A stretch of DNA of 64,000 bases from Asterionella formosa (taxonomy: Eukaryota). The stretch lies in assembly GCA_002256025.1 (NCBI GenBank), contig NKIB01012180.1:1-64000 (forward strand), read 5' to 3'. Positions 26,344 to 63,100 of this stretch are shown piece after piece. The notes under the pieces are model-generated. The model was not told the origin of the DNA. It did no database searches and saw only the letters and a program-made list of their open reading frames with translations. A program made the translations under genes and the position numbers. Position 1 is the first letter of the stretch. Each line of letters begins with the position of its first letter.

Positions 26344-27143
26344 TACTGTACCAGGTCCCAGTAATTTACACGGATCATTTTTCTGTAGATGTAGACCGGT
26401 AGATGCTCCAAGCAATCATTACCCGACAAAAGCACATAGCATCTGTAGACTTACTACCTGTACTGCAATATCATGTAGATCCGTGTACCAGTTACTCTGA
26501 GTACCTGGTACCAGGTACCACTTAAAAACTGCAGGCTAGCATTATTTTCCTCCATCTTCCGACTGAAGCAATACAGCAATCAAACTTGATGCAAGCACTA
26601 GCTAAGTGCATGTTAGACTATGCACTCAACTCAACTAATAAGTAATCAGTTTTGAATGGGTCTTCCAAATCTCTACATCCAGGAAGATGCAACTGCACCC
26701 ATGTTTGAATAATTATAGACTCTATCATCATCACTTTTGTACCACATAATTGTAAAATCATTACAAACTCAAGGAAAACTGCAATGATGATGGTTGCCAC
26801 TATCAGCACAGTCAGTTTCATGTGATTGTTACTCTTTCTGAGCATCTACATCACACACCTCAATACCTTCTTCCTAAAATACAGCCTCTCATGAAAGAAA
26901 ATTCAAGATTCAATGAGAAATTAAATTTGTGTCAAGGTTGTGTTGCTGGCACTTTCTTGGTATGATGTTGTTTGCTTGTTATTTCATTAGCTTTCTGCCT
27001 TTTGCTCATTTCAAAGACTCACACAAGTAATCTAGCTTGCTGATCAGATACTAAAATATTTATGACAGCTCCAATATAATGAGGTGAGAACCAAGATGAT
27101 TGGCCTGTGTGCTTTGCCATTTTTATCAATTGTGCAACTCTAA

Positions 27144-27378
27144 TATATTGTCAATTAAATCTTATAGTATATTAGAGCTATCCAATAATTGCACTCGTGC
27201 CTAAATAAATGGGCACAAATAGTTCCAGTTTTATTTGTCTGTACAGTACAATGGGACTTGTCTCCATGTCAGCCACACACCCCAGAATCCTCAGGGCTAC
27301 ATAAAAGATCAAAAGGTGGAGAATGAAGGAATCGAACCCGCCACCTCATGAGGTGTGCTAACAACTAAGCAATTCCTC
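27144..27378 (-). mobile_element. tRNA-Ala-derived SINE-like insertion, copy 2
   Basis: Head GAGGAATTGCTTAGTTG...GAGGTGGCGGGTTCGATTCCTTCATTCTCCA (27378-27317) lacks an intact anticodon arm. Perfect 16-bp direct repeat AATTGTGCAACTCTAA at 27128-27143 and 27379-27394. Confidence 0.75.
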
Positions 27379-29251
27379 AATTGTGCAACTCTAAAATAAA
27401 TATCTCGCTCCTATTTGCAGGAATCATTGCATCTTATCCAACAATCAGCCATGACCACCAGATGCTAGTAGTGAAACAGCAGCTAATGCTGTTCTTGAAG
27501 AGAATGATGTGGTATGATGATTGTTGCAGGAAAATTGATTTGAAAGTTGTTAACGCAAGCAAGTAGAGCAATGATTCTATACCAGCCAGCATGCTATTCA
27601 GCAAGTTTTGCAACTACTATTCTTAGTAGTGCCAGCTAGCTAGACATGTAATGTAAATAGTTCAGTTAGATATTTCAACAACATTAATTTGCGGTAGCAT
27701 TTTCATATTACTTTACTCTTCATAGAAATTATAGTTGATTATTGCAAACAATATTTGTGGTTGTTGAGACAGAAATTATGTAATCAGAAATACCAAAATA
27801 TTGTAAGTTTGCTTGCCCCAAAATTTATTTGGGTTTATTAAAAGATTATGCTAGTTGTCGAAACTTTTTAGTTCACTCCTATCAATTACATTATATCAGG
27901 TATCACATTGTATATTTGATGCCATATCATTAAATTATTTACTTAGCCCAATTCATCATATTGGGCCATCCAAATTATTTTTTGGGGTGATAATGATAAA
28001 TGAGTGACAAATCAGCCCTTGTATTCACTGTAGTTGTTCCTGTTGCTGGTAGTCTTGCAACAGGTGATATAACTTCACCTTGTGGCAAGTATAAAGAGGT
28101 CATTGCTACGAATATACCCAAGCCATTGCCAGCCAGGTGAGCTCTAGCTAGTCATCTGAAAAAGGACTTGAGCAAGGAAGGACATATCTTTTCTTTGAGT
28201 TAAGGGCGATTTTTTTAACAGAGATACAAATTAGTTTTTTTATAGCAAAACAGTTAGCTGTGCATCAGACAAAAGTAAAATAAGCGAATTTATAGCTATG
28301 TGGTATAACCATTCCTGCTGCGCATCATCGCCATCTTCCACCTGCATCCAGAGTTGCCTGTCAGACAAGAGTACTGATACTTACGCATGTGGTTGCAGAT
28401 ACTTCACTCATTCCTGAGCTGCCAAACAAGACAAATATGAAGACGCCATGTCGGAGCTATCAGTTTAAAACTGTTGATTTTCACGAAAACCTGGCCGCTC
28501 AATACCAATGGGAAGTCATCATGCATTGTAAGTCCCTCATGATTTGATCATAATAGTCATCTCAAGAAAATTAGTCAATCAGAGATTATTGACAGTTTTC
28601 TTGTCAGCATACTGCAGAATTGAATAAAAACACCCGGGATTTGCTGTATCACACATTGTCTACTGAAGAATGCGACATGTTGCTGGTGGTTTGACTAACA
28701 GTAGAGTCCTCTTACATAATGAAAGTCAATGACTTGCGTCCTTGCTGAGAGTTGGAAGAGACTTCACTGTCTTGCGCTGACTCAAATTCAATCTATCTTC
28801 GGTGTCGCTCGAATCATCCGCACTCTTAGAAACATTTTGTCGAGAAGGCCACAAGCGGACTGACTTGTTCTTCTTGATTTTCCAACTGCTGCTGGCGAGC
28901 TTGAATTTCCGTAGCTCAAGCAAGCTCAATTTGTTTTTATTCTGAATCAATGCGCTTCTCCTGAAGATTCAGAAGTAGTTCTTCTAAATCAATCTTCTCT
29001 CGCACTGTCCCAATTCAGTTTTCGTATAGGAAATTTTGATGATCAATTTACTTGAATAGCCTCTCCTTGATGTTGCGGCGAAAGCATGTCTATCCATTTC
29101 ATTATTACTGTGCCATTGCTCTATGAGAAGTAGCAACAACAAGAAGCACAACTCATAAATGCTGCAATATGTACTGAAACCATAATTATACGAGTTGCGA
29201 TAATGCTTACTGGTGATCCCTCCTGCTCCCAAAAATCGTTTCCGTTGTTTC

Positions 29252-36986: not shown

Positions 36987-38378
36987 CTATAATTTTGTTA
37001 CAGCAATGCTGATATCGTCTCTGTATTGTAGTTGTGTTGCCTTCCACTTTAGTGATGCAAGTGATATTAGCTGCTCGCATCCACATAAAAGCGAGCTTTT
37101 CTCCTGATACATGGCTCGTGCGAGGTGATCGGAGACTACCGATGGGTTGACAAGATCAAACAATCCATCTGTTGCTGCGACCATGAAGACTTTGAGTGCT
37201 CCAGACTTTGAAACTTTATCCAAATCAATGACATCGACTGTGGGGTCAGCGATGATGCCAACGAGTTCCCCTCCTTTATCCCCAATACTCCTGCTCATTG
37301 CAAGCGCAATGGCCGAGTCTATTCCATACGGGATGAGCACTCGCGATGATTCTAGATTTTCCAATTCCGGCAACGTAATCGTGCCTCCAGCCTTTTCAAT
37401 CCGTTCCCGCTCTTCTGGAAGGTGTGGCTTGTGCGGCTTGGTTTGGAAGATGGTTTTCACCTGTCTTGATGACACATTGTATGCTGCAACAAACGCAAGA
37501 GAATCCCCTGTGTTGGCAACGTATAATTTGCGCCCCAGCTTCAACATTAGTATAGCGGTTGATCCTGAAAAACCTTTGGAAATAACGTTGGCATCCATTT
37601 CTATTATTGTCGCTGAAAGTGCAGCTTTAACAGCATCTTCTGAGTCTAGCGCCCGTTTCTCAAGTTGATTGGTTAGCATTCTGGGTAATTCTAGAGCAGC
37701 ATAGTGCGAGGTGACATGACCTTCCTCTCCGTGACCGTCAAACAATCCCATAATTATAGGAGGCGACTTTGCTTGCTTGAACCAGAACGGTGATACAATT
37801 AGAATCCGATCTTGATTCATTTCTGAGGCCCCAGCGGATCCTTTGTACCCTTGTCGCGTCAGCAATGCATGTTGTTCATCCACACTAGCAGGAATTCTCA
37901 ATTTTTTGATAATCTCTTTATTTATCACTGCTTCAGTGTCTTGAGTTGTAACTATAGGGATGATTGGGTCAATAACGTGGTCCTTCGAGGCGGAACTCTC
38001 GCTTGAAAGCATTTCATCACGAGAAATGAAGCTACTCATTTCCACCATGGGAAAGTATATTCTGCAAGGGTTGGAAATGTGTAGTGCACATTCCTTGGTT
38101 TCGTAGTAGGTATATGCTCCTGTTGGGTTAACTGTTGCATAGGTCTTTTTGGACCTGTCGCTTTTCAACCCCATCCATGGCTTCGTGGCGGAGAGGCTTA
38201 CTAATGCTATATCCCGCCGTATTTTTCCTCGCGTCTCAGTGGGCGAGATCATTAAAACAAGATACATTGTGTACACAGCAAAACCAATCACCACTGTAAT
38301 TGAAATCAGTCCCTTCCAAAGAAGGCGGCCTGGTCGCACCTTTTGTCTGCTGCTCCTTGTTGGTGCTGATAGGATCAT
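36987..38378 (-). CDS. PP2C (PPM) family phosphatase with N-terminal membrane anchor
   Basis: First ATG at 38378; basic stretch then TM (LISITVVIGFAVYTMYLVLMI); MNQDR, GLFDGHG, ANTGDS, LAMSRSIGD, AATDG, YRDDI. Confidence 0.9.
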   Translation of the reverse strand: MILSAPTRSSRQKVRPGRLLWKGLISITVVIGFAVYTMYLVLMISPTETRGKIRRDIALVSLSATKPWMGLKSDRSKKTYATVNPTGAYTYYETKECALHISNPCRIYFPMVEMSSFISRDEMLSSESSASKDHVIDPIIPIVTTQDTEAVINKEIIKKLRIPASVDEQHALLTRQGYKGSAGASEMNQDRILIVSPFWFKQAKSPPIIMGLFDGHGEEGHVTSHYAALELPRMLTNQLEKRALDSEDAVKAALSATIIEMDANVISKGFSGSTAILMLKLGRKLYVANTGDSLAFVAAYNVSSRQVKTIFQTKPHKPHLPEERERIEKAGGTITLPELENLESSRVLIPYGIDSAIALAMSRSIGDKGGELVGIIADPTVDVIDLDKVSKSGALKVFMVAATDGLFDLVNPSVVSDHLARAMYQEKSSLLCGCEQLISLASLKWKATQLQYRDDISIAVTKL

Positions 38379-41300
38379 CACGTTGCTCAAATCAGCGGAA
38401 GAAGGAAGCGATATCGCAGCAACTGCTATGATGTGGCATTGGGAAGGAATCGATGTGACCAAAAGAACTCAAGCCTTGTAATGTCGTTGGGAATGAACAA
38501 TAAATTGAATTGCATCAAATATGTTGCTGAAGCTAATTGTTTAATACCGGTACATATTGACTACCGCGGTAAAGCTACCAGTTACCAAGTACCTGGTACC
38601 TGTCACCGGCAATCATAAAATGGTCCTGAGCGACACCCAATGATAATCCTCCGTATGATAGCACCTGTTCTGCTCTTGTAACCATCAGAAGCCCCATTTT
38701 TCGTATATACAGAAGTACTCAATTTATAAAGCAGTGACTACATAGAATTTCCCGGAATATTTCAAGACTTCGTTCCTGCTCATAGTACTTGAAATGGCTA
38801 GCTCTCTCCAAAATAGGCATGCAAATATATATGCATATCATTACATATCAATCAACCTCCTCAATACATTGATCGTCACTCCTTCAGATTTCGACAAATT
38901 CTTCATCTTCTTCCAGTCAAAGGAGACCAGTCAGGGAGGGCTTCCCTTCCTTGCCAAGGCTGCTTGAACATCACTGTCATCAACAAGAACAACAACAGAT
39001 TCAACCAGAAGAGGGAGAAGAGGAGGATGATGAAAGATGAAGATGACACTGGTGCTGACGAGTTTGCCAGCAGCAATGAGGACAGCAGGATGGAAGCATG
39101 CAGAGTTGGCTGGGGTCAACAATTCAGGGTAAATGAGATCCTCTCATTGCTGGACTCTAGTGACAACAAATAACCTTGAATCAATTCGTTCTAAGATAAA
39201 AATGAAAGTAGTGCTGATGAAAATTCATGATAAATAAATTCTATGAATTACATGGCATATCTATTGTTAGCATTCCTATGCAAACAGGGCATATACACTG
39301 AAGCAATTTGGTTCTTACCAACTTTGCTAGCACGAAAGTTGTAGAGCAATACAATGATCATTTGGAGTATGAACTTTCTCTCACCTTTTCTTTGTAACAA
39401 AATTTTCTTTTGATTCTTGGAAATGATCCCTGAAGATATCGCATTCCCCATTCCGACAGCTGTTGGATTAAGGTGGCTTGGCGTTTTACACCAAATCTTT
39501 GTTGAGGATTACCTTTTGCTTCACAACCACTTTTTTACCTGTATCCCTGTTAACTGTTTCAATTTGATCTGGTGGAATTATTGTAACCACGCGTTGATAT
39601 AGACATATGATAACAATGAAACATAAATGATAATGACACAACAATCATGTCATAAAGGCTTAAGGAACAATAGTACAATCATTCAAATCGTCGTCATTGC
39701 TTGAGTGGTGTTGAAGACAAAGCGAAAACGGAGCAAGTGATGATGATGATGACAACAAGATCAATGCATTTGCTGGTAGATTATCGTAAAAGGGAAATTT
39801 AACTAAAGGAACAAAAAGAAAACAATACATATCATATTTTAACATTTTAACATGCATAGTCGAAAAAGGGTTCTATTTTATATATGGAATCATTTATTAC
39901 ACATATTAGATGATATATTGAAATTATATGAACTTAAAGCAATGGAGATTGTATGACAAAGTGAGCGCATCCTAATAGTTACAACTAACTTACGAATGAG
40001 TAAACTTTGGGTGGCATTACCCAGCTCCCATCAACCACATGACATTATTCTGGTATAAATGAGCCAGGCAATATAGAATTTTTTGAAGACCGATAGTTTG
40101 AATCCAATAATCAATGGTTGTAAACATATTGTCAATGAATGTGAGGTAGACATCAATGGGTAATTCTGCACATGTATGATCTGACAAATGCAAACAGCAT
40201 TTGTAGACTAGTTCATTTGATTATTCCATTCGAACAAAAATAATAACTAGCATAGCAACTCACAATAAGAATATAGAAATAAAAAAATGAATGTCTCTAC
40301 TGTCTAGAGCCTATTTTTTGTCGAACAATAGATCAATCTAGGAAAGTTAATACTTTATCAAATATATTTTAAGTGAATTCGAAAAGGAATCTTTGCATGT
40401 ATGCGCAAATTTCCTCTGATTTAAATATTTCAAACATTATTATTTAATTCATACTACTAATGATCACATAAATGTTTCCAGTTCCAGGGAATTTCGGCAA
40501 CGCTAAGCCATCCTTTAATTTTGTCTAGGGTTTCAGATACAGCAACCTTAAAATTTCATTTCGTATTTTTAGCATGACAGCCAGAACAACGGTACCTGAT
40601 CCTGTATATATAGTAATGTAAATGATGAGTGGTTAATTGAAAAATGAGCATCATGAGAATGATTGAAATGTAGGTTGCTTTTATCAATAAAAAATCAACA
40701 TAATGTTTGGAGCAACCAAAGTATCATGATATAGAATGTAATCGGAAATGTCAAATTCAAAATTAAAAGATTTTTTTGGGGATAAAGTTGAAATGAGCAA
40801 TATAAGTTTCTGAGAGTTTTCCTTTGTAGTAACTACAAAGTAATTGTTTTTCCATAAAACAATCAAAGAAGGAAATAGCACAAAAAAGAGAAGAAACCCT
40901 GAACCCAATTGAAGATTTAGTTTGTTTTATAGAGAAAATGATCTGTTTGTTGGAACCATGCTGCACATAACTGTGTTAATTACTAGTATAGAGTAGATGA
41001 TATGGCTTTTGAGCCATGAACATAGCTGTAGCTTGATAATAGAATACAGGCAGCAGAAGTCTTTCCACCCACGGTTTGAACTTAACAAGCAAGAACAACA
41101 ACCCTGATCATTCCATTCTGTATGTGATCACCAGGGTACTCCTCTATTACCTCCTCTATTGAATAAGTAATTATTGCTACTAAATGCTGAAACATAGCCT
41201 GTTATACAAACTCTGAGAAGAAAGATTACAAACTGAGTTAGTACAAGAAAATCATTGCTTAGTGGCAATAATGTTAACATCATCATTTACAAAACCTTGA

Positions 41301-41812
41301 CAAATCAATAAACAGTTTCTGAAATGATAACTTCAAAGACCAGGCACTGATGTAATTTACATTGGCCTTCTATAAGAAGATACAACCGAATCAAGAGTGT
41401 CAGAATGGAATGAAAGATTTACAGATGCAATCAAAACATAGAACAGAAGCAATAAAATCACAATTTGGTCAAATAGTACCTACATAGATGCCACATTCTG
41501 TGTTTCAGTTTCAGTGTTAAAATTACCACTGATCTGCTATTGTTAGCTGTCATAAAAAGAGCAAATGATGTGATCAATTGAAAGTCAAAAGGTTTTTATT
41601 TGAGCAATTTCAGGAAGAATAAAATGAGAATTATATTTGTGATGGCAAAATTGGGCAAACTAAAAATCAAAAAATGTTTAATTTAATTTAACTTTCTGGT
41701 CTTGTGAAGATAATACTGAGCCCAGCATTACAACATGTTCAAAAAGTAAGAGTTAAAGTTTAGTGATAACTATGCATGCTTATCTTTATTTCTGTTTGAA
41801 TATGTAGGCTAG

Positions 41813-42330
41813 CTACATCCCTAGAGTAACCATTAAGTACAAATGTCTGGTGCAAACCTTGCTGCCAAAATCAGATATACATCTAATGGAATCATCCATT
41901 TTCCAAAGTTGTGTGTATGATGCAATGACATGAAAAATCCCACATGAATTTGAGTCATACAACAACCAACTGCATCTGTTTGACAACTCATGACAGTGAA
42001 ATTTTTTGATAAACTCATTTTTTATCACTTGGCATGATGGATGTTGATTTGCATCATCAAAGGTGGACATCAGGAAAAGGTCAAAAACAAAGTGGATACT
42101 TCATATATTTTTATCAAATCTGTAGAGTATCTTCATTTTTTTTAATTAGTACATCAACTGCATGTTTTCACACTAACCTGACTGAAAAGCTGAGGGGTGA
42201 TTGGTGTAAATTGTAATGCCAAAATGGAAATATATGAAAGAATCAAAACATATTTTAATCATGGGCAATAGCAGACCCATTGTAAATTTCAACATGAAGA
42301 TAGGAAATATGCAAATATATTTTTTATGAG
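41813..42330 (-). pseudogene. Decayed intron-containing gene fragment, possibly Ulp1/C48 protease-like
   Basis: CAG|GTTAGT...TACTAAT...CTACAG intron (~42177-42120). Fragments LLLPM...FHFGITI and DSNSCGIF, with an in-frame TGA. Confidence 0.25.
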
Positions 42331-42570
42331 CAATAGCAAGCTGCAAAGGACACTTAGGCTCAATCAATTGGCAGTAGGTAGTGAATGCCATGCCAGTTGT
42401 GAATGGCCTCATCAATACCCTTCTCCTATTCACAGTCAACCTACTCATGCCACTCAGCCTTGCATACATGTATACTTGCAGGCATGAGACCACCTCAGGC
42501 TTGTATTGCCTTCAGTAAATGAGAGCTGTTTGCATAGATAATGACAATCAATGATTGATCTGAGATGGGA

Positions 42571-44486
42571 CTAACAGTTGCCATCATCATCACTGTCACT
42601 TCTTGGTCGTTTATGGGTTGGCAATGCAGAAATCTTGATATTGTTATTCTTCTCCCACTTGAATGGGTAAGCATACATTACTATCTTACCCTTGTCATTG
42701 AGTCTATGGTAAGACTTGGATGCAAACAGTGGGACCAGAGAAGACAGAAGGTGCTCCACCACTGGAACAGAAAATGAGTTCCCAAGCAAATGTTCACAGA
42801 ACTCCTGTGCATTCAACAAGGTTTGGGTTTTCCCAGTTTTGGGAGTACCAATCCTTAACTTTACCTTCTTTTCATCAACCAAGAAACCAAAGGACTCACC
42901 ACTGAAGTGATGGTATTTGGGGTGCAAAGATTTGTGCCAAGGGTCATCATCCATTACAATCTTTGAGAGTGCATCATCATACAAAACATTGAAAAGCTCC
43001 TCAACTTCAAGATGAAAAACCATCATTGAGCACAAATTTTTTTAGGAATTGTTCCAACCATAACCTTGCCACATACCTGCACTGGTGTAATTGTCTGGAA
43101 AACCCATCATTCGTTCACGTTCTAATACAGAGAAATGGGATTGTTCAAATCTACTTCCATGTGACCTGACTTTCATCATTCTTTCATCTTTTAATCTTCT
43201 CTTAGATGCCATGAACGTGTTTGCCTTTTGATGAGACACTTTTGCTTTGATTAACGGGAGTTGCCAACCATCTTCGAGACATGTACTGGGTGATGATTGG
43301 CTCCAAGGTCCACTAAAATCAAAACTATTTACCTCAAACTAAAAAAGGGAAAATTGGTGGTAAGATTCAGGTGTTTCATCGAATTTTCATTCACAACAAC
43401 TCTCAAGGATATTACTCACATTCAACCGATAGCTGCGATTTCTTCTGGTAGGAGAAAAGTAGCATGCATCTATTTCAATGACTGGACCATTCTTAAAGGC
43501 ACAATCAACTTCGCTAGAATCTTCCCGACGAAGAATTACATTTTCAATCAGATAAAAGATGGTCCTGGACTGCCGCCGTTGAAGCTCCTCGATGAATGAA
43601 GCAAGCATGATGATGTACATGCCTTGATTTCCTTGGGTCCCTTCCCTGTTGGCATTGATAAGGCAATAGTCTTGACATGGTGGCCCTGCAATGATCAAAT
43701 CAATGGCTGGAAATTTTGAAAAGTATTAGCAAATCAAGTATCAAGCATAGCTTGAATGAATAAAAACAACTTACGACCATATTCCAATGCCATTTCAACA
43801 CTGAAATCTTCAAATTTGTTAACATAGGTGTGAACAATACCATCATTCGGTAGCTGAGGATTGTAAAGGGAATCATGGTTGTTCCTAACAACATGCGTTG
43901 CAACAGAATTATGTTCAACATGAACATGCCGCTTAATGTCAATATCCAGCCTCTTTAAAGCCACCAGCGCTGTCCCAATACCACCGAATAACGACAGTAC
44001 CACCATTGAGGGTTTTTTCGTCATTCTTGAGCGCTCCTCCAGAATTTTCCTGAATTTGAAACGCCTGTGAACGTACATTTCACTTGTTTCTAACATTGAT
44101 ATCGGATCAGGAAGATCTTGATTATTAAAAAAATAAGCCTGTTGACACTCAGCATTCCGTGTTTTTTCATTTATGATGGATTTCCCAATCATTTCGTTCC
44201 CCGTATCCTCAGAATTTTTGCCATCCTGATAGACAAGCTTCTCTAATGCCAGCATCAATGGTGGCTGCCAGGTTTGTCGATTATTTCCGATTTTGTGACA
44301 GCATACCCGATGGTAAAGTCCAACCTCAGTTCCAAGTTCTGGGGATACGACGTGATCGGATGGCTCCTCACATTTGCATTGGAAGCAACAAAATGCCCAT
44401 TCATCATCTGCTATGAAATCTGTACGACAGACAGATTCTTCCTTTCTCAAGCAATCATGATAACAACCGGTATCATCGTCTTCCAT
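42571..44486 (-). CDS. DNA (cytosine-5) methyltransferase, DNMT3-like, 4 exons, 564 aa
   Basis: Exons 44486-43775, 43706-43420, 43338-43077, 43004-42571 splice in frame (1695 nt). Motif I VLSLFGGIG, IV GPIDLIIAGPPCQD, VI IENV, VIII SPTRRNR, IX ERERMMGFPDNYT, X LLGNSFSVPV. Confidence 0.9.
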
Positions 44487-45931
44487 TATTTTATTTCACA
44501 ACCAGGCAGTATGAATGAATAATGTAAAGCAATGGCTGGAAGGCGACGATTGAGGAATTACCGGTAGGAAAATCCAATCATTCATTTACAATTTTCCGCC
44601 AAGCGCAATAGATATTGAGCAAGAACCAACATCAAACAACGTACCGGCACATCATGATGAGGCCAGCAAGTCGTGCCTGGTACCTGGTACCTGTGACCGG
44701 AAATAAGATATGTATTCAGATACCAGCAGGGTACAAGTTACCTGGTAGGTAGAGTTGACCTGACCTGTTCGACACAATCTTGGGGCAAAAACTCGTGCGC
44801 CCACCATTTTCTTCAAAACGGCAATATAAAAGTGCGGAATCGATAGCTGACCCTTCGTACTATCTAAAACTTTTTTCCATTTAAAAAAGGTTGCATATTT
44901 TTAAAGTTATGGTCGTTTCCCAAAAAAAAAGTCCATTTTCGGGAATACCAGAATCCTTATCAATTCGCCAAGTACGACGGGTAGGCGCGCCACGGGTGAA
45001 ATGGAAACAATTAAAAACACGGTAGATGTACTAGCTAAATATTTAAAATGGTAGAATCACGTGCAAAATATGTAGTCTTGTGTGCGTGAACTCCTCTTTA
45101 CACTAGTTTAGTAGTTTAAACTGATGCTATGGGGGTTACAGTAGTCCTCTCCTCTCTACAGACACCAACAGATGCTTTAACAGCATTTATCAATCCCTCT
45201 TTGTCCAATTTCATAACATTCACTGGTCGAGGGCCAGTGAAATACCTCAACATGAATGTCCTGGAGCTGCTTGTTTGTCCACACCATAGCAATCAGATCC
45301 TCATTTTTTATGGCTGCATCAATCAGTGAAAAAATATCAAGCAAAATTGAAAGCTTTTTCTGATCCAATGATGCTACAGCTGCCAACTTCTTTCCCTCCT
45401 TACCCTGGGTTTCAACTTTATTTGCAATTGACCTTTCTTCCTTTGCCCAGTCATTTTCTCCACAAATCTCACCAACAATAGACATGACTTCATTCATCTT
45501 TTTAACTCTTTTCATTTGGCGTTATGAATTCAATACCCTTGAGTAGCTGGCCACATTGCCCTTTAACATTGTCTGCAAATAAAAAATATCGTACTTATAA
45601 GATCAGGGGTATCATACGATAACTGGCACAGAATTTTTCTGTGCATGATACATGTTTTGTTATATGTATGATAAATGCATACTATGAAAGTGAACAGGCT
45701 AAGCGTACTCATAATAACCAAACCACCATATAATTATCAAAACATTATCCTATGATGTATATTCTTTTATCAAATACCTATCCTGCCTTATTTGATGGTA
45801 ACTCTAATCGAAATAGCAGTTAAAAATAGGTTGAAATGAATTGTAATTTTACTGTTATATCACGAAATCATTTTTATGCTTCTACATTTTGTGTGGTTAA
45901 ACAGCCAATATTCCCCTTTTCTATTCTTGTC

Positions 45932-46150
45932 TCAATGCTCTTGATGCATGCCTCCTGCCTCCCTGCAATGCTCGTGAGGATGCATGCCTCCCCCGCTTCC
46001 CTTCAATGCTCTTATGGATACATGCCTCCCTCTTCCCTTCAATGCTCTTGAGGATGCCTGCCTCTCCCCCGCTTCCTTTCAATGCTCTTGAGAATGTATT
46101 GCATCCTGCCTTCAACTCTCTTGATGCATGCCTCCCGCCTCCCTTCCACT
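45932..46150. repeat. Minisatellite, about six degenerate 33-39-bp units
   Basis: CAATGCTCTTGA(GG)ATGCATGCCTCCC..CTTCCCTT repeated. Confidence 0.9.
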
Positions 46151-47239
46151 CAGATTCTGAAACTCATCTGACTTCATGCTGCGAATCCCATTTCCATTTG
46201 ATCCGATTCTGTTTTATCTATTTTGATTTCCTAATCATAACAACAATGAGAAGGAATTACTCGCTCGTTAGCCATGTTTTGTTTATATCTCAACACTGCA
46301 GTCCCATTTAAGCCTGCTCCACTTACCAGAAATCGATGAACTTTTCGCATAATGCAGTAAAATAATGTATCAGTCAATGATCACATAAGTAAAAATCAAT
46401 AAACCATTCCACCAATAAAAACGTCATTCATAACTTACAACAAAAATCTTTAATTAAAATTATCCTGAAAGATTGAAAAACAAACATATGTCAGTGATTT
46501 CCTAACAGTGGCTCATTAATCCAACAAGAGCATTTACAAGTTTTTGGTCGACATTGGTGGTATCCCGCTGAATGCGAAATGTGCTTTTGAATTGCTAGGG
46601 AAGGAGGCAATCATTTAGTCTTTGTGAACCCAACAATTGATCACCTTGGCATGTACTCCTGATATCATACTACCATAGCTAGATTCAGTTCACTTTTCCT
46701 TTTCCAATCCTTCTAAGCCGCAAGGTTTATCATCATTGTGTGCGTTGAAGCGTCGTTCTTTCAGTTTTCCTTGCTTGTCACAGGGCAGAGATGATCTTTC
46801 ATTTCAGGATCATGTGGTACTACTGGTAGGCATAACAAGGAACCTCTAAACATGATTTCAAATGTATAGGCTATGTATACAATTAAAAACATATAAATAT
46901 ATAGACATAATGTTTATACTATCATCAATTAAGCTTATACATAATTCAAATATATACAAGAATGCATGAGGATATCATTGTTTTCCACGACCTGATGTAC
47001 AGTCATTGAATTTTTCCGCATCAATTCTTGTACCTACAAGTAAGTAATTTAATTAAGCCCCTCAATTAGCGGGAGTCATACGAAATTTTTCATATGATAC
47101 AAATCATAAAATATTTACCGGTTGATGAATTGCTCGAATCTATCTTTATGATTTACAGATCATTCCTCCTGGTTAAAAATGATTGCCAATAAATAAGATC
47201 ACAGATGACAAGTTTTAGCTCGTTTGATCTTACTTTTAA

Positions 47240-47470
47240 CCTAAGTACGAGATGACAATAGATATCAATGTCACCTTGTTTGTACGAGAACAACGTGTTA
47301 TTGCGTCCCCTCCATCACCAATAGACGATACCAATGTCATCACCTTGTCTGAACAAGAACGTGTTGTAGCCTGAGTACGAGGTGACAATAGATACAATTT
47401 CACCTTGTTTGTACGAGAAAGTGTCATTGCGTCCCCTTCATCACCAACAGATACCAATGCCACATTGTTG
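47240..47470. repeat. Tandem ~130-bp duplication with internal sub-repeat
   Basis: AGTACGAG(A/G)TGACAATAGATA..CACCTTGTTTGTACGAGAA..ATTGCGTCCCCT.CATCACCAA..GATACCAATG occurs twice. Confidence 0.88.
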
Positions 47471-47550
47471 TATGACTACGTGATATTGTATACCCTCAAT
47501 CACCTTTAGATACCGGTATACCAAAGTCACTCCCTACTAACCCTATTCCT

Positions 47551-47815
47551 ATCATGGGCATGATTCAAATTCAAATCAATAGTACATGTAGTACGTTTAC
47601 ATAAAAATATCTGTGCAACATACCGGTATATATGTGTCACTATGATGGACATGATTTGAATTCAAATCAATCGTATGCATACTGGTACGTACGTTTACAT
47701 GCAAAAAAATTTGTGCTACATATATACCGGTAGGTATCCCGATGATGGGCATGATTAAAATTCAAATCAGTTGTGTACATACGTTTACATACAGAAATAT
47801 CTGTGCAACATATTG
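47551..47815. repeat. Three tandem ~92-99-bp copies
   Basis: ATGG(G/A)CATGATT..AATTCAAATCA..TACGTTTACAT..TGTGC(A/T)ACATA at ~47553, 47645, 47744. Confidence 0.9.
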
Positions 47816-49592
47816 GTACTACCAGGGTACCAGGTAGTACAATACTAGATGGTGATACAATAGACAGTAGTACCTGGTACCAGTACTCACACACAAGTAG
47901 ACTCAAACATGAATATGCACATACCGGTATGAATATATATTATGTCTTCTAAGCTATAGATTACTACAGCAGCTATGTACACACACCCATGTACGACTGT
48001 CCTACTCATGCAACAGGCATTCAGATTGAGTGGTTGTTGATGTTTGCAGCCAGTGATGGTATACATATAAAAATACATGTATCGATATATATACATACAA
48101 TATTCTACATGACGACAAATATTATTCATATTAGATGATAAATCAAATTTATATGATCATATGATCGCCATTATAAGATGCATCACACGAATTAGATGTT
48201 TTCTATTTGCAGACGATATTGATTCTCCATTTTGCAATGTTCTCCTTTGCTCCAACACCGATTGCATCAGAAATTTCAAAAGCAATACCTTGAATCTCAT
48301 CCCTCTCTGAAAATGTTGTTAAAGATCTGGGTGTAGGACAAGGGCGCTGCATTTCTATGTTTGGAATTCCCATCAAATTTTTTTTTGGGTTGCCAACCTG
48401 CAGTCATTTCCTTGCATCATACAATGTTGATCTCAGAACTCTTTGAGTGCGCATCATGATAATTGTATCATTCCCTCCCATGTTGTTCAATTCTTCTAAC
48501 AGTGCTTTGATGTTACCAGGCAAGTTCCAGTTCTTGTAAATATCGCAAAGATTCTTCATCAAAACCAGAGATTGACTCACTAATTTTTCAACATCAACCA
48601 TCATTGTTGTTCTTGCTTTTGCTGTTACTGTCATTGGTTTCTGGTGGGACAAATCAGAATGATCCTTTGTAGGTCGTCTGCGCCATAAAGGAATCCATCT
48701 TACAGAACAAGTAAACAAGGAAATGAGCGCATTGAAATAACTCTGGACGTTTGTTGCTAATCACTGGCATTGTTACTCACTGTCATATGTCACCAGACCA
48801 TTTCAGCCTTGCCTGTTCTTGCCTTATCTTTGGCCTCCCAGACATGGTTTGATTGTTGGAATTGAATGTGCAGTGAGCGAAATGAGTAAGTAATGCAAAC
48901 TAATGAAGATGATAAACATTCATCCACCAGTGCGCAAAAATCTGAGTTTGCAATGAACATAAAACATCTTGTAGTACTGCTATACTAGTGTACCTTTTTA
49001 CGACGGATTCGGATAGTTCGCGCCAGCAAGCATTAGCAGGATTCGAAATCATTCATAATTATGAAAAAATATTATAGATTGAATTAACTAAAAATAATAG
49101 AAGATCCTACGGAAGTTCTTCGGGGGCTGTACTACAAGGTGAAATCCAAAATTGGTCAGGGTGCCGGTTTGGTCAACTCTACCTGGTCCCGGAGTACGAG
49201 GTACCAGGACCAGGTACAGTAACCTTCGCGGTACGCTGTTGTGGGGTGCATGTAGTTCGAATCCAAGAAGTCATGCGGCCGGTGCTTGTGTCTCCACGAC
49301 ACGACTACTGGTACAGGAGCCACAATGGCTACCGGTACATGGAGAGTATTTCTTGTACCAGGAGGTACTTCCAAGCAACAGAACCAGGTGATACGCACAG
49401 GCAGTATTACTGGTACCTGGTACCAGTAGTCCGGTACCTGTTAGTAAACCTTGTACCAGGTACAAGTATACCTGTATAATAGCAGTACGTAGACTATGGT
49501 ATATTATTAGGATATGTTGCAATCAGCTTTATATCAGGGACCACACGGAGCTATGGGAGACCGCACATCATAAATCACTTTTTCACTCCACC

Positions 49593-51301
49593 ATGGCGGA
49601 CGATTCTGACGCTTGCCTCCCTCACGTCTTGACTGACTTTGTGTTTGATCTGTGCGATTCGGTCACGCAGTCTCAGATTGGCGAGGAGCAATCCAAACTG
49701 TACAATGTCACGTTCAGAGAGCTGTGTTCCAAGGTGCGACCAATCCAAACGCAATGGGGTAGTTGATGGCATGATGCTGCTTTTTCCACATTCTTTTCTC
49801 ACACTCGCGGTTCGCCCTTACCATTCGTTCCAGTACTACACTACCTCGCCTTGGCCTTCTCCTCAAGCCATTGCGTCCGAAGCCAATGGTCATCCCCTAT
49901 TCCTAGCCATTTACAGAGAAGTCACCCATCGTCACTGGCACTCCGTTAGTCGTCCCAACGTTCGCGATCGCATCGAAGGCTGGAACGTCTACAGAGAGCT
50001 TTTGGATGAAATATTGGACGAAGATAATATTGAATCCACTCAGCCCTCCTTCTTCCTCCTTCCAGACTGGGCATTCGATATTCTCCACGAGTTTGTATAC
50101 CAGTTTCAGGGATTTTGTCAATTCAAGGCTGCGGTATATGCGACTGCTCTCAAGCATAAGATTCCACTGGATGGAGATATTCCACCCAACACGCCAAATC
50201 ATTTGGTAGAAAACCTTAACGCGCTCTCGCAGAACAAGGACGCATGGTCGAGTGACCAAGTCATGGGATACTTGACTAAGTTGATTCGAGTAGGAAAGGC
50301 ATCAACAATGCCCGGATATCAGTATTTGGGCATTTTTGCTTCTATTACTCTCAGCCGCCTAGAGTGTTTGCTTGGAGACTACAGAGGATGCTTGCAGGCT
50401 GTGAATAGTGTAATGAATGGAGACATTTCGGTTTCACAAGAAGGCGAACTATCGACTTCGGTGGAGATTGTGCATAGAGTCGTTCCTGCCAGACTATCGT
50501 ATGCCTACCATGCTGGTGTGGCTTACTTGATGCTCCGTCGTTACAAGGATGCGACTCGAACGCTTGGGGACATTTGCTCCTTTGTGCAGAGTGGATTTAA
50601 GGTAAGAAGAATGCAACGTTTTATTTGACTGAGAATCAAAAGAGTCCTTTGAACTTATTTTCTTGCCGTTGCTAACACTTGACTGTCCTTAGACTGGTCA
50701 ACTTCGCAAGCTTCCCAACTCTGATCAATTCAACAAGACTCACGACCGCATGATTGCTCTTCTGGCAATTCTTAGTCATGTGTGCCCACCAGTTGGTCTA
50801 TTGGAAGATTCCATTTTACGCACAATCCGAGACAACCATGGCTCCTTGCTGGCCAAAATTGATTCTGGCGAGAAGGAGTACGATGAATTATTTACATTTG
50901 CATCTCCAAAGTTTATTTCTCCTGTCGTAGGTGGTGACAATTATAAGCTCCAAATCAAGCGCTTCCGCAAAGAAATGTCGAGTCAGCAGAAGTGCCGCAA
51001 GCTGAGATCATACATGAAGTTATACACGTCCATGGAAGTGAGCAAGTTGGCGGCCTTTACCGATTCGACCAAGGAAGAAATGATTGCCTTCCTACTAAGT
51101 TACAAGCATCACATGAACCAACTTGAAGAAGGAAGTGATGTTCCCAAGAGTGCATTGGATATCCACTACCATATTTCCAACTCGACAGTGCAGGTAGATG
51201 AAGCAGAGAAACAACGACGATTCGAGAACTATTTTATGCAACAGATTTCACAAAACGCAGAGATTCGCAAGGATATCATGAGAATCAACACGAACGTCTG
51301 A
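49593..51301 (+). CDS. EIF3L: Eukaryotic translation initiation factor 3 subunit L, 3 exons
   Basis: Exons 49593-49733, 49834-50601, 50693-51301. Motifs PWPS, WAFDILHEFVYQFQ, LSRLECLLGDY, YLMLRRYKDA, SPKFISP, LRSYMKLYT. Confidence 0.93.
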
Positions 51302-60349: not shown

Positions 60350-63100
60350 AGGTACAGCTGTTCAACAATATCACTTATTAGCCATAACGATGTGAACAAA
60401 GCAACAACTATAGTATGAAACAAATGCCAGTGCATACCGATAGTATGTATGCATTTTCAAACCAACAGCAAAGATATTATATTGCCTTTTACAAAGGCTG
60501 GGTGACTATGAAACCATAGTCCACATTAAGGAGTGAATCAGCAGCCTTTCCCACTCATCCAACAAGCCAAGGCATGCATTGATATAGATGCAAAACCAGC
60601 TGAAAATGGCTGATGGGAGGCAAATAATTCTGATCGTGCTTCCTTGCTGCTGGGATCAGTCGTGGCTGTGGAAACTGTCGAGGAGAGTACCACAACAGCC
60701 CATGGCCAAGAAAGAGAGCAAAGATATAAAATTTTCAGACAACATTCTTGCTGTTCCAAACATGGAGTCAACAGTTAGTAGTACACAGCTGGAAATGAGC
60801 ACTCTCCTCCCAATAGAAAAATTTCCACCTGGATTGATGAGACCTCAACAAAATTCACTCTGCTTGCTACTCCAAAGAGAGTGCAAACGCTTGCTCGTAG
60901 TTTCACTAGACATAGACTAGCAACAAATGATAGAGCTGGAAGGTTGCTTTGTTACTAGCCAACCACGCAATGCATCCAGGCCTTGATGAGACTGATCTCT
61001 TTCAGTGGTTGCATGTATCCAACAAAAACTGTGAAGAAATCAAGTTTTAGAATGCCAATACCATCAATTAATCTCAATTTAAGGATTCAATTGAACATGC
61101 ACCTATTCAGAAATACACCTTATACTACCCTACATACACACATGTGATACATCTGTGCATAACCACACATAACACACAGCAACCTGGTGTTCTCAACAAC
61201 AAAGTGATATGACCTATGGTAAATTTTTGCCACATAGATTAAACAGGAAATATTGTTTGATTCACTTCTTGAAGGAACAAAGAAGGCAAGTATGCTGAAA
61301 AGTGACTGCTTCAATCACCATAGACACAAACTAAGATGCACACTTCCTTCACAGCTTCAGTGAAAAGGTGAAAGAAGATCCCAAGCACTACAACAAATCA
61401 CTATCTTAGCACTTCACAGAGAACATTTGCACTCCAACGCCTCTAGACATGAGGTGGTTGAGAATGTGTTCCAGCATGTTACCACAAATATACCCACTTG
61501 ACAGCGCCAGAAGTCACTACATAGTAGCTATTTTAGGTTCTTATCAGGAGGTTTTCTTTTTTCCGGGAAAAAACCAGACTAATCACGCAAGGAAGCGCCA
61601 TGATGCGGACTGCCCTACTATCACATATACAGTAGTTTTAAGGCGCTATACAAGTAATATTAAATATACCAACAGAGACATCAATTACTCATGATAGCAA
61701 TTTCCAAGAACACACGCCTTGCTTGCCTTGAAACAAGGTTTTTCCACAGATTGAAAATTGGATAGTAGTTTAGTGGTCGTGTTATCTGAATCTCAGCAGC
61801 TACATTGGGCAATTCCTTCCAAATGAACACGCACACGATCATTTTTTATTTTCTATGTTACTTTCTTTCCTTTTTCTTTACACATCCTGGGCATGCCCAG
61901 GAGGGATGCATTTACCTCATCGCGCAAACAATACAAACATGAAAAAATGGGTCTAGGTCTCTCAGAGATCAATCGATAGAGGGCACCTTTGAATGATTTG
62001 GCACATGCGGGTACTACCCGAAATGGAGACTAAAAGAAAGAAGGGGGGAGCGGTTTAAACACCACTGCCTGCTCCTGCTGACGAAATTAGCACACTACTT
62101 GGCTATTGGAAATGGCAACAATTGGACCCAATTATATGGCGTTGTACTATCCAAAAAATAATTCCATGTAGTCCAAGAACCGTGTCAATTCGGACTCTGA
62201 AAAATGGATGGCGACCAGTTAAGGCTTCTTGACTTACATAATTTTTTTGAGGCATGTATCAGGCTCATTGCAATCCCTTCGGGGATTGGGGTGGATTTAG
62301 TGCTGGTAACTCTTTTGAACATGAGTGCACAAACTGGAGGGCTGAAAAACTTAACTCAAATCATGTTTTCTACTGAAATCTTATACATAGCGAATATAAG
62401 CGAGGTCATTTTCAAACAATTCTTGGCGTTACCGGCACTCCCCAGCAGCACGATTAAAATCATGTCTTTCACATGGAGCACTTGTTGTGCGCAGATAGGA
62501 TTCAGATGCTGGGGCACTTACATCACGTTTTGGCCTCAAAACTGTAGATTTTTTACGCTGACCACGCTTTTTAAAATTGAATGTAGGTCGGACCTGTGTC
62601 ATGAAGTCATAAGGCATCAAATTGGCATGTGTCAGTTGAAATTGAGGAATTTTTTGATTGCTGATTGTTCTTGTTGACAGCAACATCCACGAACCCTCCT
62701 ATTTCTTGAATCTCTGACAGACATCTGTGTTTGAGATGCTGAGGGGAGAGCATCATTGTTATAACTACAATCGTTGAGATATGAAAGGGAAAGGTTTTTC
62801 CAAGCCAGCATTGTTGGTGATGGACAACTGGCAATTCTCAGGGAGAATACCAGCAAGAAAGGAAAGCATTGAGGAGGAGGCCTCATCTTCTTCAATCATG
62901 TAGAAGTGCAATCGAATGACGGATTGGTTGCCATTACTCCTATGTAAACAACGATTATGGTAGTCGAGCTATGCATGGGGTTCTCGATATTTCTGCTGCT
63001 GATAATTATAATATCAAATAATATTTTACTATGGAAAAAGATGGAGGAGCTAAATTAATTTGTATCGATTAAGTACAAGGGTTCTCCTAGACGTTCCAAG
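60350..63100. other. Decayed repeat-like block with broken ORFs
   Basis: 60350-61450 is strongly CpG-poor and CpA/TpG-rich. Only short interrupted ORFs; no family recognised. Confidence 0.4.

What the first reader, a model, noticed from the sequence alone, without database searches (positions are those of the whole stretch)
42571..44486. Intact DNMT3-like methyltransferase inside a transposon-like, CpG-eroded block
Seen: four ORF-track fragments splice into one open 564-aa protein with all main catalytic motifs. It has a short Cys/His-rich N-terminus and a long insert between motifs IX and X. It lies in the 38.6-49.2 kb repeat-like block. By eye, exon 1 keeps over 20 CpGs while exon 4 (434 nt) keeps about one. 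Established: diatoms encode DNMT3-type enzymes, and TE-borne DNMTs are known in dinoflagellates and charophytes. Inference: either an element-carried/duplicated copy or a host gene methylated from its 3' side. YRLN in place of the usual W after motif VIII may signal early decay.
Basis: partly seen in the sequence, partly recalled or inferred. Interest (0 to 1): 0.7.

Follow-up and report, generated by a model that had tools for sequence, protein, structure and literature searches.

The report
Diatom DNMT3 gene between old transposons
This is the diatom's ordinary, single, spliced DNA-methyltransferase 3 gene, wedged between unrelated transposons rather than carried by one; its last exon has lost its CpGs next to an old transposon, and its protein family shares a conserved cysteine/histidine cluster that published surveys did not describe.

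Summary
The gene is real: four minus-strand exons give an open 564-aa protein, and RNA contigs skip the introns exactly. It is not element-borne. Five genome searches found no second copy. The 38.7-49.2 kb block is a patchwork of separate repeat families, and the gene is the unique island between two element ends. It belongs to the diatom DNMT3 family and keeps 62 of 65 conserved columns, so decay is not indicated; the Arg after motif VIII is unusual (0 of 121 relatives), but Trp holds there in only 48. The IX-X insert and the N-terminal C-C-x2-C-x-C...H-x2-C-C-H cluster are family traits. Two papers say algal DNMT3s lack companion domains, so the cluster looks undescribed; a PHD origin was not supported. 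Exon 4 (CpG o/e 0.05; 0 of 374 control windows this low) fits past methylation spreading from the adjacent old repeat, into which the 3' UTR runs. Two look-ups found no earlier scan note on this protein.

The parts
43775..44486 (-). DNMT3 exon 1 (ATG at 44486; residues 1-238: Cys/His cluster, helical linker, motifs I-III)
   Evidence: spliced RNA contigs
44295..44393 (-). Conserved F-C-C-x2-C-x-C-x19-H-x2-C-C-H cluster (residues 32-64), putative metal-binding module of diatom DNMT3
   Evidence: fold not resolved (pLDDT about 50)
43707..43774 (-). intron 1, 68 nt, GT..AG
   Evidence: skipped by X6 record 19 and X11 record 10 (table 8)
43420..43706 (-). exon 2: motif IV (PPC, Cys248 at 43677-43675), motif VI (ENV), motif VIII with Arg331 (codon CGG, 43428-43426)
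43339..43419 (-). intron 2, 81 nt, GT..AG
   Evidence: joint seen in 3 of 3 RNA runs, not in the DNA run
43077..43338 (-). exon 3: target-recognition region and motif IX
43005..43076 (-). intron 3, 72 nt, GT..AG
   Evidence: joint seen in 3 of 3 RNA runs, not in the DNA run
42571..43004 (-). exon 4: most of the 75-aa IX-X insert, motif X, tail and stop; CpG o/e 0.05
44487..44603 (-). 5' untranslated part covered by RNA contigs (they begin at 44603, 44597 and 44595)
   Evidence: contigs cannot fix a true start
42108..42570 (-). 3' untranslated part; its last 408 nt lie inside repeat D
   Evidence: X6 record 19 reaches 42108, X12 record 14 reaches 42421
40683..42515 (.). Repeat D: old, unclassified non-coding multi-copy element with a sharp shared end at 42515; this copy is CpG-eroded (3 CpG, o/e 0.06)
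   Evidence: loose ends at 42515 in all 4 runs
44747..49184 (.). Repeat A: multi-copy element with terminal inverted repeats, starting about 145 nt upstream of the RNA 5' end
   Evidence: (I14)
45570..48216 (.). Repeat B: high-copy element with terminal inverted repeats, nested in A
   Evidence: (I3, I4); empty sites in L060, L061, L064
38735..39569 (.). Repeat C: deleted remnant of a PIF/Harbinger-type element (fuller copies carry DDE_Tnp_4)
39773..40551 (.). short pieces of further repeats
36987..38468 (-). left host neighbour, PP2C phosphatase
   Evidence: PF00481 E 1e-26
49633..51301 (+). right host neighbour, Paf67-family gene (eIF3 subunit L, name recalled)
   Evidence: PF10255 E 2.5e-42 and 5.3e-45

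Best explanation
This is the genome's one vertically inherited diatom-type DNMT3 gene. It is transcribed and spliced, and encodes a probably active SAM-dependent C5 cytosine methyltransferase: Cys248 attacks C6, the ENV glutamate and motif VIII arginines hold the flipped base (mechanism from established knowledge; activity inferred from intact motifs). Its likely job is de novo methylation of new repeats beside a DNMT5 maintenance enzyme (inferred). Unrelated transposons landed on both sides at different times. The oldest, repeat D, sits 55 nt past the stop and supplies the end of the 3' UTR. Long-term CpG methylation of D reached about 1.2 kb into the gene, and deamination removed CpGs at positions where selection allowed it. 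That gives the gradient from exon 4 to exon 1 while the protein stayed intact (methylation inferred from sequence only). The N-terminal Cys/His cluster and the IX-X insert are ancestral parts of diatom DNMT3; the cluster most likely binds zinc and serves as a targeting or regulatory module (inferred).
For: Single copy: protein searches with exon 2, P0001 and the distant relative P0091 hit only this locus (1, 2 and 3 candidates scored). PF00145 gave 5 loci of 6 candidates, this being the only DNMT3-type one. DNA search of 40560-44735: 70 matches outside the locus, none beyond 42518 (40 of 1003 candidates scored). Spliced RNA in 3 runs of 2 studies; an intron-free allele P0001 is in the protein database. 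Family: 53 representatives at E 1e-30 or better; named relatives are diatoms. Nearest solved proteins are DNMT3A/B: E 4e-16 against 1e-7 for DRM2; Z 30.8, rmsd 2.4 over 283 residues, against 24.8 for the best non-DNMT3. Tree: inside the 44-row clade (support 100), end branch 0.92 against a median of 0.75. 62 of 65 conserved columns kept. CpG gradient rho 0.89, p 5e-4 over ten 200-nt bins. D copy: 0 of 18 family CpG sites kept, 13 as TG/CA/TA; 20% non-CpG divergence against 2-13% in 21 other copies. The genome has a DNMT5-like locus (L109; typed by motif from recall). Diatom methylation is CG and TE-centred, and spreading is suggested (PMC9998398 passages).
Against: No methylation data. Spreading is not general for D: in 17 other copies flank CpG did not track copy CpG (rho -0.05), and of the two other eroded copies only L086 had an eroded flank. 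Genome searches score only top candidates in a 15,436-contig assembly, so a diverged second copy could be missed. Arg331 is found in 0 of 121 relatives and Asn193 replaces a conserved Asp (85 of 91). No diatom DNMT3 has a shown activity, and loss of DNMT5a alone removes global CG methylation in P. tricornutum. Synteny and dN/dS were not testable.
Confidence: 0.82

Rival explanations
1. The gene is carried by a transposon, or is a recent duplicate moved with its flanks (as for DNMT3s inside dinoflagellate and streptophyte retroelements).
For: It lies in a repeat-rich block. In L052 repeat D is followed 168 nt later by repeat A, as if the gene had been deleted from a composite element. TE-borne DNMT3s are described (PMC12344493 passage).
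Against: The L052 spacer is unrelated sequence between two true termini. D, A, B and C occur apart from each other and without the gene. No second copy. Three spliceosomal introns and an ordinary branch length among diatom relatives.
Confidence: 0.03
2. The host gene is in early decay: still transcribed, but weakened by Arg331 and by methylation-driven mutation, under relaxed selection.
For: Arg at 331 in 0 of 121 relatives, where the column is almost always hydrophobic; D193N, Y489F and K491E depart from consensus; some diatoms have lost DNMT3; 4 of 7 polymorphic codons listed from lake RNA change the amino acid.
Against: Trp occurs in only 48 of 121 at that column; a break rate of 3 of 65 is mid-rank (12 of 42 compared relatives lower); no stop or frameshift in any laid contig or in allele P0001; model mean pLDDT 84, core above 90. 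The polymorphism list was cut by the tool and is too small for a ratio.
Confidence: 0.1
3. The CpG loss in D and exon 4 is a selected feedback device: methylation of the TE-derived 3' end tunes DNMT3 transcript level or 3' processing (like the plant ROS1 or IBM1 cases, recalled).
For: The transcript runs 408 nt into D; this D copy is the oldest and most eroded of 22 compared and is present in lake DNA as well as the culture; exon 4 is below all 374 control windows.
Against: With almost no CpG left there is little to sense today; age alone explains the erosion; no expression or methylation data; no evidence that relatives have a TE at this position.
Confidence: 0.05

Closest known systems
Diatom DNMT3 family (Hoguin et al. 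2023, PMC9998398; main-text passages and Supplementary Data 1 and 4 rows seen)
   Same: DNMT3-type catalytic domain, single copy as in P. tricornutum, long N-terminal extension before PF00145; relatives named Epithemia, Fistulifera, Skeletonema, Cyclotella.
   Different: The paper states that microalgal DNMT3s all lack chromatin-associated domains; it does not mention, in the passages seen, the Cys/His cluster, the IX-X insert or members without PC/ENV. I could not fetch its P. tricornutum sequence for a direct comparison.
Mammalian DNMT3A/DNMT3B catalytic domain (PDB 6u8p, 4u7t, 6w89)
   Same: Best sequence and fold match; motifs I, IV, VI, VIII, IX, X in the same order.
   Different: No PWWP or ADD detected; 75 residues between motif IX Tyr and motif X against about 13 in DNMT3A, replacing the stretch that forms the RD homodimer face in DNMT3A (recalled); about 21-27% identity.
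Retroelement-borne DNMT3 of dinoflagellates and streptophytes (PMC12344493 passage)
   Same: DNMT3-type enzyme in a repeat-rich setting.
   Different: Single copy, three introns, no LTR, reverse transcriptase or shared element ends; flanks are unrelated DNA-transposon-type repeats.
PHD/ADD zinc fingers
   Same: C-x2-C ... H-x2-C spacing; one relative (P0062) has extra cysteines and a sub-threshold PHD_NSD hit; red algal DNMT3 has a PHD at a similar distance from the catalytic domain.
   Different: Ligand pattern is CC-x2-C-x-C / H-x2-CCH with a 16-37 residue loop and no closing C-x2-C; profile comparison with diatom PHD fingers is not above shuffled controls.

Membership tests
C5 cytosine methyltransferase (PF00145) | Motifs I, IV (PC), VI (ENV), VIII, IX, X in canonical order | tested here: met
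   PF00145 38.8 bits over cut-off 22
C5 cytosine methyltransferase (PF00145) | Methyl transfer to cytosine in DNA | not testable with these tools
   needs an assay
DNMT3 | Closer to DNMT3A/B than to DNMT1, DNMT2, DNMT5 or DRM by sequence and fold | tested here: met
   E 4e-16 vs 1e-7 DRM2; Z 30.8 vs 21.5 DNMT2, 18.0 DNMT1, 17.5 DNMT5
Diatom DNMT3 | Groups with diatom DNMT3-like proteins to the exclusion of other DNMT3s | tested here: met
   quick tree, support 100 for 44 of 47 rows; only three outgroup rows, long-branched; names
Diatom DNMT3 | Reciprocal best hit with the P. tricornutum reference enzyme (criterion of PMC9998398) | not testable with these tools
   reference sequence not among fetched proteins; supplement file searched lists ids only
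Host single-copy gene | One copy in the genome | tested here: met
   lower-bound searches in a fragmented assembly
Host single-copy gene | Spliced transcript | tested here: met
Host single-copy gene | Synteny with related species | not testable with these tools
   no relative genome held; metagenome scan gave 1 weak unrelated locus
Transposon-borne DNMT | Gene lies between the two ends of one element and recurs with them | tested here: not met
PHD/ADD finger (N-terminal cluster) | C4-H-C3 (or ADD C4-C4) ligand pattern and profile match | tested here: not met
   pattern lacks the second and last cysteine pairs in the window protein; 1 of 49 and 1 of 26 members give a sub-threshold PHD_NSD hit; hhalign probability 1%, reached by 9 of 100 shuffles
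PHD/ADD finger (N-terminal cluster) | Cross-braced zinc-finger fold | tested here: inconclusive
   models have pLDDT about 50 there; fold search of the low-confidence model found nothing
DNMT3L-type pseudoenzyme | Loss of PC and ENV | tested here: not met
   both intact in the window protein

The most novel reading that the evidence does not exclude
Diatom DNMT3s, described as bare catalytic domains, carry a lineage-wide zinc module of their own (C-C-x2-C-x-C / H-x2-C-C-H) that does the work of the animal ADD domain by reading chromatin or gating the enzyme. The IX-X insert rebuilds the dimer face, and a clade of catalytically dead paralogues that keep the module acts as an independently evolved DNMT3L. 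Diatoms would then have a DNMT3/DNMT3L-like de novo methylation system by convergence.
Probability: 0.2. Interest if true: 0.7.

Novelty: new member of a known kind. Interest (0 to 1): 0.35.

Why it matters
The locus itself is an ordinary host gene, so the transposon-borne reading can be dropped. Two by-products have value. First, the function and targeting of diatom DNMT3 are open (no knockout was obtained in P. tricornutum), and a conserved eight-ligand Cys/His cluster gives a precise handle for mutagenesis, metal analysis and pull-downs. Second, the exon 4 gradient is a clean sequence record of transposon methylation reaching into an expressed gene in a lineage where genes are mostly unmethylated.

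Tried and rejected
One composite element around the gene: rejected. The GTACCTGGTACC-type words at 38589, 44680 and 49413 as block ends: rejected, the same words flank unrelated copies of A. A hidden intron removing the IX-X insert: rejected, RNA contigs read through it and 56 of 57 pattern-matched proteins have 75-114 residues there. PHD or RING origin of the cluster: PDB profile search gave only PCF11 at E 1; hhalign 1.0% for PHD and 2.7% for RING, reached by 9 and 16 of 100 shuffles; ESM Atlas gave no usable hit for the window protein and PHD clusters at 0.83-0.86 for P0062, below two unnamed bacterial clusters and below the 0.9 mark, a lead only. Fold search of the N-terminal model: nothing. 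Predicted complex of residues 25-154 with zinc and the histone H3 tail: no verdict. Spreading as a general property of D: not supported. Metagenome scan for related loci: 18 candidates, 1 weak hit, no usable context. No ORF with a Pfam match was found for repeats A or D (5 ORFs from A-bearing loci and 2 from D-bearing loci scanned). Earlier-findings look-ups by sequence and by words returned nothing.

Full report
Observation. The finding describes a real gene on the minus strand. Four exons (44486-43775, 43706-43420, 43338-43077, 43004-42571) separated by GT..AG introns of 68, 81 and 72 nt give an open 564-aa protein. Pfam PF00145 matches the spliced form above its cut-off. A polyA RNA contig of 2275 nt (run X6) covers 44603 to 42108 and skips all three introns at these positions; lake metatranscriptome contigs skip all three (X11) or introns 2 and 3 (X12); the DNA run X1 is continuous. 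These are 3 RNA runs of 2 studies; contigs show splicing, not level or true ends. The protein database holds an intron-free allele, P0001, 563 aa, differing at M99I, A365E and one Asp in the tail.

Copy number. Protein searches of the own genome with exon 2, with P0001 and with the distant relative P0091 returned only this locus (1, 2 and 3 candidates scored). The PF00145 family gave 5 loci of 6 candidates: two bacterial-like enzymes (L106, L107), a DNMT2-like (L108), a DNMT5-like (L109) and this gene (types assigned from recalled motifs). A DNA search of 40560-44735 gave 70 matches outside the locus, none reaching past 42518 (40 of 1003 candidates scored). These are lower bounds in a fragmented assembly, but all agree.

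The surroundings. The block is a patchwork. From left to right: a deleted PIF/Harbinger-type remnant C (38735-39569; fuller copies carry DDE_Tnp_4), short repeat pieces (39773-40551), repeat D (40683-42515), the gene, repeat A (44747-49184, terminal inverted repeats) and repeat B nested in A (45570-48216; empty sites in L060, L061, L064). D ends sharply at 42515 in its other copies, 55 nt past the stop; A begins about 145 nt upstream of the RNA 5' end. One locus, L052, has D followed by A and looked like a deletion form of a larger element, but the 168 nt between them are unrelated sequence between two true ends. The gene is therefore the unique island between two elements, flanked further out by host genes (PP2C and a Paf67-family gene).

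Identity. The best sequence matches in the PDB are DNMT3A/B (E 4e-16; DRM2 1e-7). The AlphaFold model (mean pLDDT 84) matches DNMT3B at Z 30.8, rmsd 2.4 over 283 residues, ahead of M.MpeI 24.8, DNMT2 21.5, DNMT1 18.0 and DNMT5 17.5 (Foldseek agrees). The representative library holds 53 relatives at E 1e-30 or better; those with names are diatoms, both pennate and centric. In a quick tree of 47 rows the protein sits in a 44-row clade (support 100), at an open fork outside a group holding the Skeletonema rows and a group holding the Epithemia and Fistulifera rows, with an end branch of 0.92 against a median of 0.75 (the careful search did not finish, and the three outgroups are long-branched). 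The laid runs are from algal culture and lake samples.

Decay. The protein keeps 62 of 65 columns conserved in at least 80% of relatives; 12 of 42 compared relatives break fewer. At position 331 relatives have W 48, F 28, Y 16, I 11, L 10, V 3, H 3, C 1, S 1 of 121, never R. So the Arg is unusual, but Trp is not the rule in this family. P0001 has it too, and no change at that codon was listed in the laid contigs. Eight differences listed from lake RNA touch 7 codons, 4 changing the residue; the tool cut the list, so no ratio is drawn. Decay is possible but not indicated.

Family traits. The IX-X spacer is 75 residues here and 75-114 in 56 of 57 pattern-matched proteins, against about 13 in DNMT3A; the model folds it with confidence as helices and a hairpin. 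The N-terminal motif F-C-C-x2-C-x-C-x(16-37)-H-x2-C-C-H occurs by strict pattern in 42 of 161 fetched proteins, most of the others being fragments. Among relatives covering the site, the eight Cys/His positions are kept in 46 of 52, 48 of 52, 46 of 48, 44 of 49, 52 of 56, 52 of 55, 54 of 57 and 51 of 57. A profile of the cluster alone found 19 proteins among 2053 candidates; those with a name, a Pfam label or a sequence I read are diatom or DNMT3-type proteins. [quoted passage not shown] Supplementary Data 4 of the first lists 33 DNMT3 rows, most with PF00145 starting near residue 25, so probably cut short; it shows a Tudor hit in one Skeletonema and a PHD in the red alga Cyanidioschyzon. Six literature searches showed no description of the cluster; I read only passages, 10 supplement files were not searched, and subscription papers are outside the library. 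What the cluster is remains open: one relative gives a sub-threshold PHD_NSD hit and language-model features lean to PHD, but profile comparison with 20 PHD and 18 RING fingers of this genome was no better than shuffles, the PDB search was empty and the fold was not resolved. Metal binding is inferred from the conserved ligand-type residues.

CpG erosion. Exon 4 has o/e 0.05; among 374 coding windows from 138 long frames in 470 kb of this genome, the median is 0.87, none is at 0.1 or below and 2 are at 0.3 or below. The ratio rises from the D end towards the start codon (0.13, 0, 0.27, 0.39, 0.62, 0.51, 0.51, 0.99, 0.76, 0.72; rho 0.89). Where other D copies have CG, the window copy has TG or CA in 762 and CG in 20 of 1341 aligned cases. 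It keeps 0 of 18 family CpG sites and is the most diverged of 22 copies. CAG and CAA are not depleted, so the loss is CpG-specific. This is what long methylation of an old insertion, reaching into the neighbouring exon, would leave. Against generality: among 17 other D copies, flank CpG did not follow copy CpG, though that sample is mostly young copies. Diatom methylation is reported as CG-centred on transposons with few genes affected, and spreading is suggested. Present-day methylation is unknown; with so few CpGs left it may be slight.

Mechanism. Shown: single spliced gene, intact motifs, DNMT3 fold, family-wide cluster and insert, CpG gradient, 3' UTR inside D. Inferred: catalytic activity, a de novo role beside DNMT5, zinc binding and a regulatory role for the cluster, and methylation spreading as the cause of the gradient. 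I put the host-gene-with-spreading reading at 0.82, early decay at 0.10, a feedback device at 0.05 and an element-borne copy at 0.03.

Verdict. A new member of the known diatom DNMT3 family, not a transposon passenger. Interest 0.35, carried by the apparently undescribed Cys/His module, the dead paralogues among relatives and the clear erosion gradient.

Noticed in passing
proteins P0042, P0052, P0057, P0076, P0091 (also P0036, P0048, P0064): A clade of five relatives (support 99) lacks the catalytic PC; in four the ENV motif is also degenerate, while P0052 and P0091 keep the full Cys/His cluster: candidate DNMT3L-like pseudoenzymes. Three more PC-less proteins fall elsewhere on the tree. None was found in this genome. 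Gene-calling errors are not excluded.
   Followed up: partly
proteins P0066, P0084, P0162, P0163, P0165: Some relatives have a Tudor-like stretch upstream of the cluster (sub-threshold Pfam hits for P0066 and P0084; similar stretch seen by eye in the others); a Tudor hit is also in Supplementary Data 4 of PMC9998398 for one Skeletonema.
   Followed up: partly
window 40683-42515 and loci L073-L101: Repeat D is a multi-copy family with one sharp conserved end, often followed by CAA or CAG, no second matching end found and no coding match; class unknown. Most copies keep their CpGs (o/e near 0.9), a few are eroded.
   Followed up: partly
window 45570-48216: Repeat B is a high-copy element (83-94% identity among the 30 best matches) with internal 33-40 nt and 90-130 nt tandem units; contigs of all three RNA runs match it at high depth.
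   Followed up: partly
window 38589, 44680, 47870, 49413, 49453: GTACCTGGTACC-type words cluster near gene starts and element ends; earlier notes on this genome read such words as excision scars.
   Followed up: no
L106:451-1932, L107, L108, L109: The genome also holds two bacterial-like C5 methyltransferases with FAGIGG and PCQPFS motifs, a DNMT2-like and a DNMT5-like gene (types from recalled motifs).
   Followed up: partly
L146:5340-7469 and L120:4532-5320: The most CpG-poor long frames in the control set include leucine-rich-repeat genes (o/e 0.15-0.35), perhaps a methylated multigene family.
   Followed up: partly
window 26501-28000 and 60501-61500: Two further CpG-eroded islands (o/e 0.06-0.26) without long frames, probably old repeats.
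   Followed up: no
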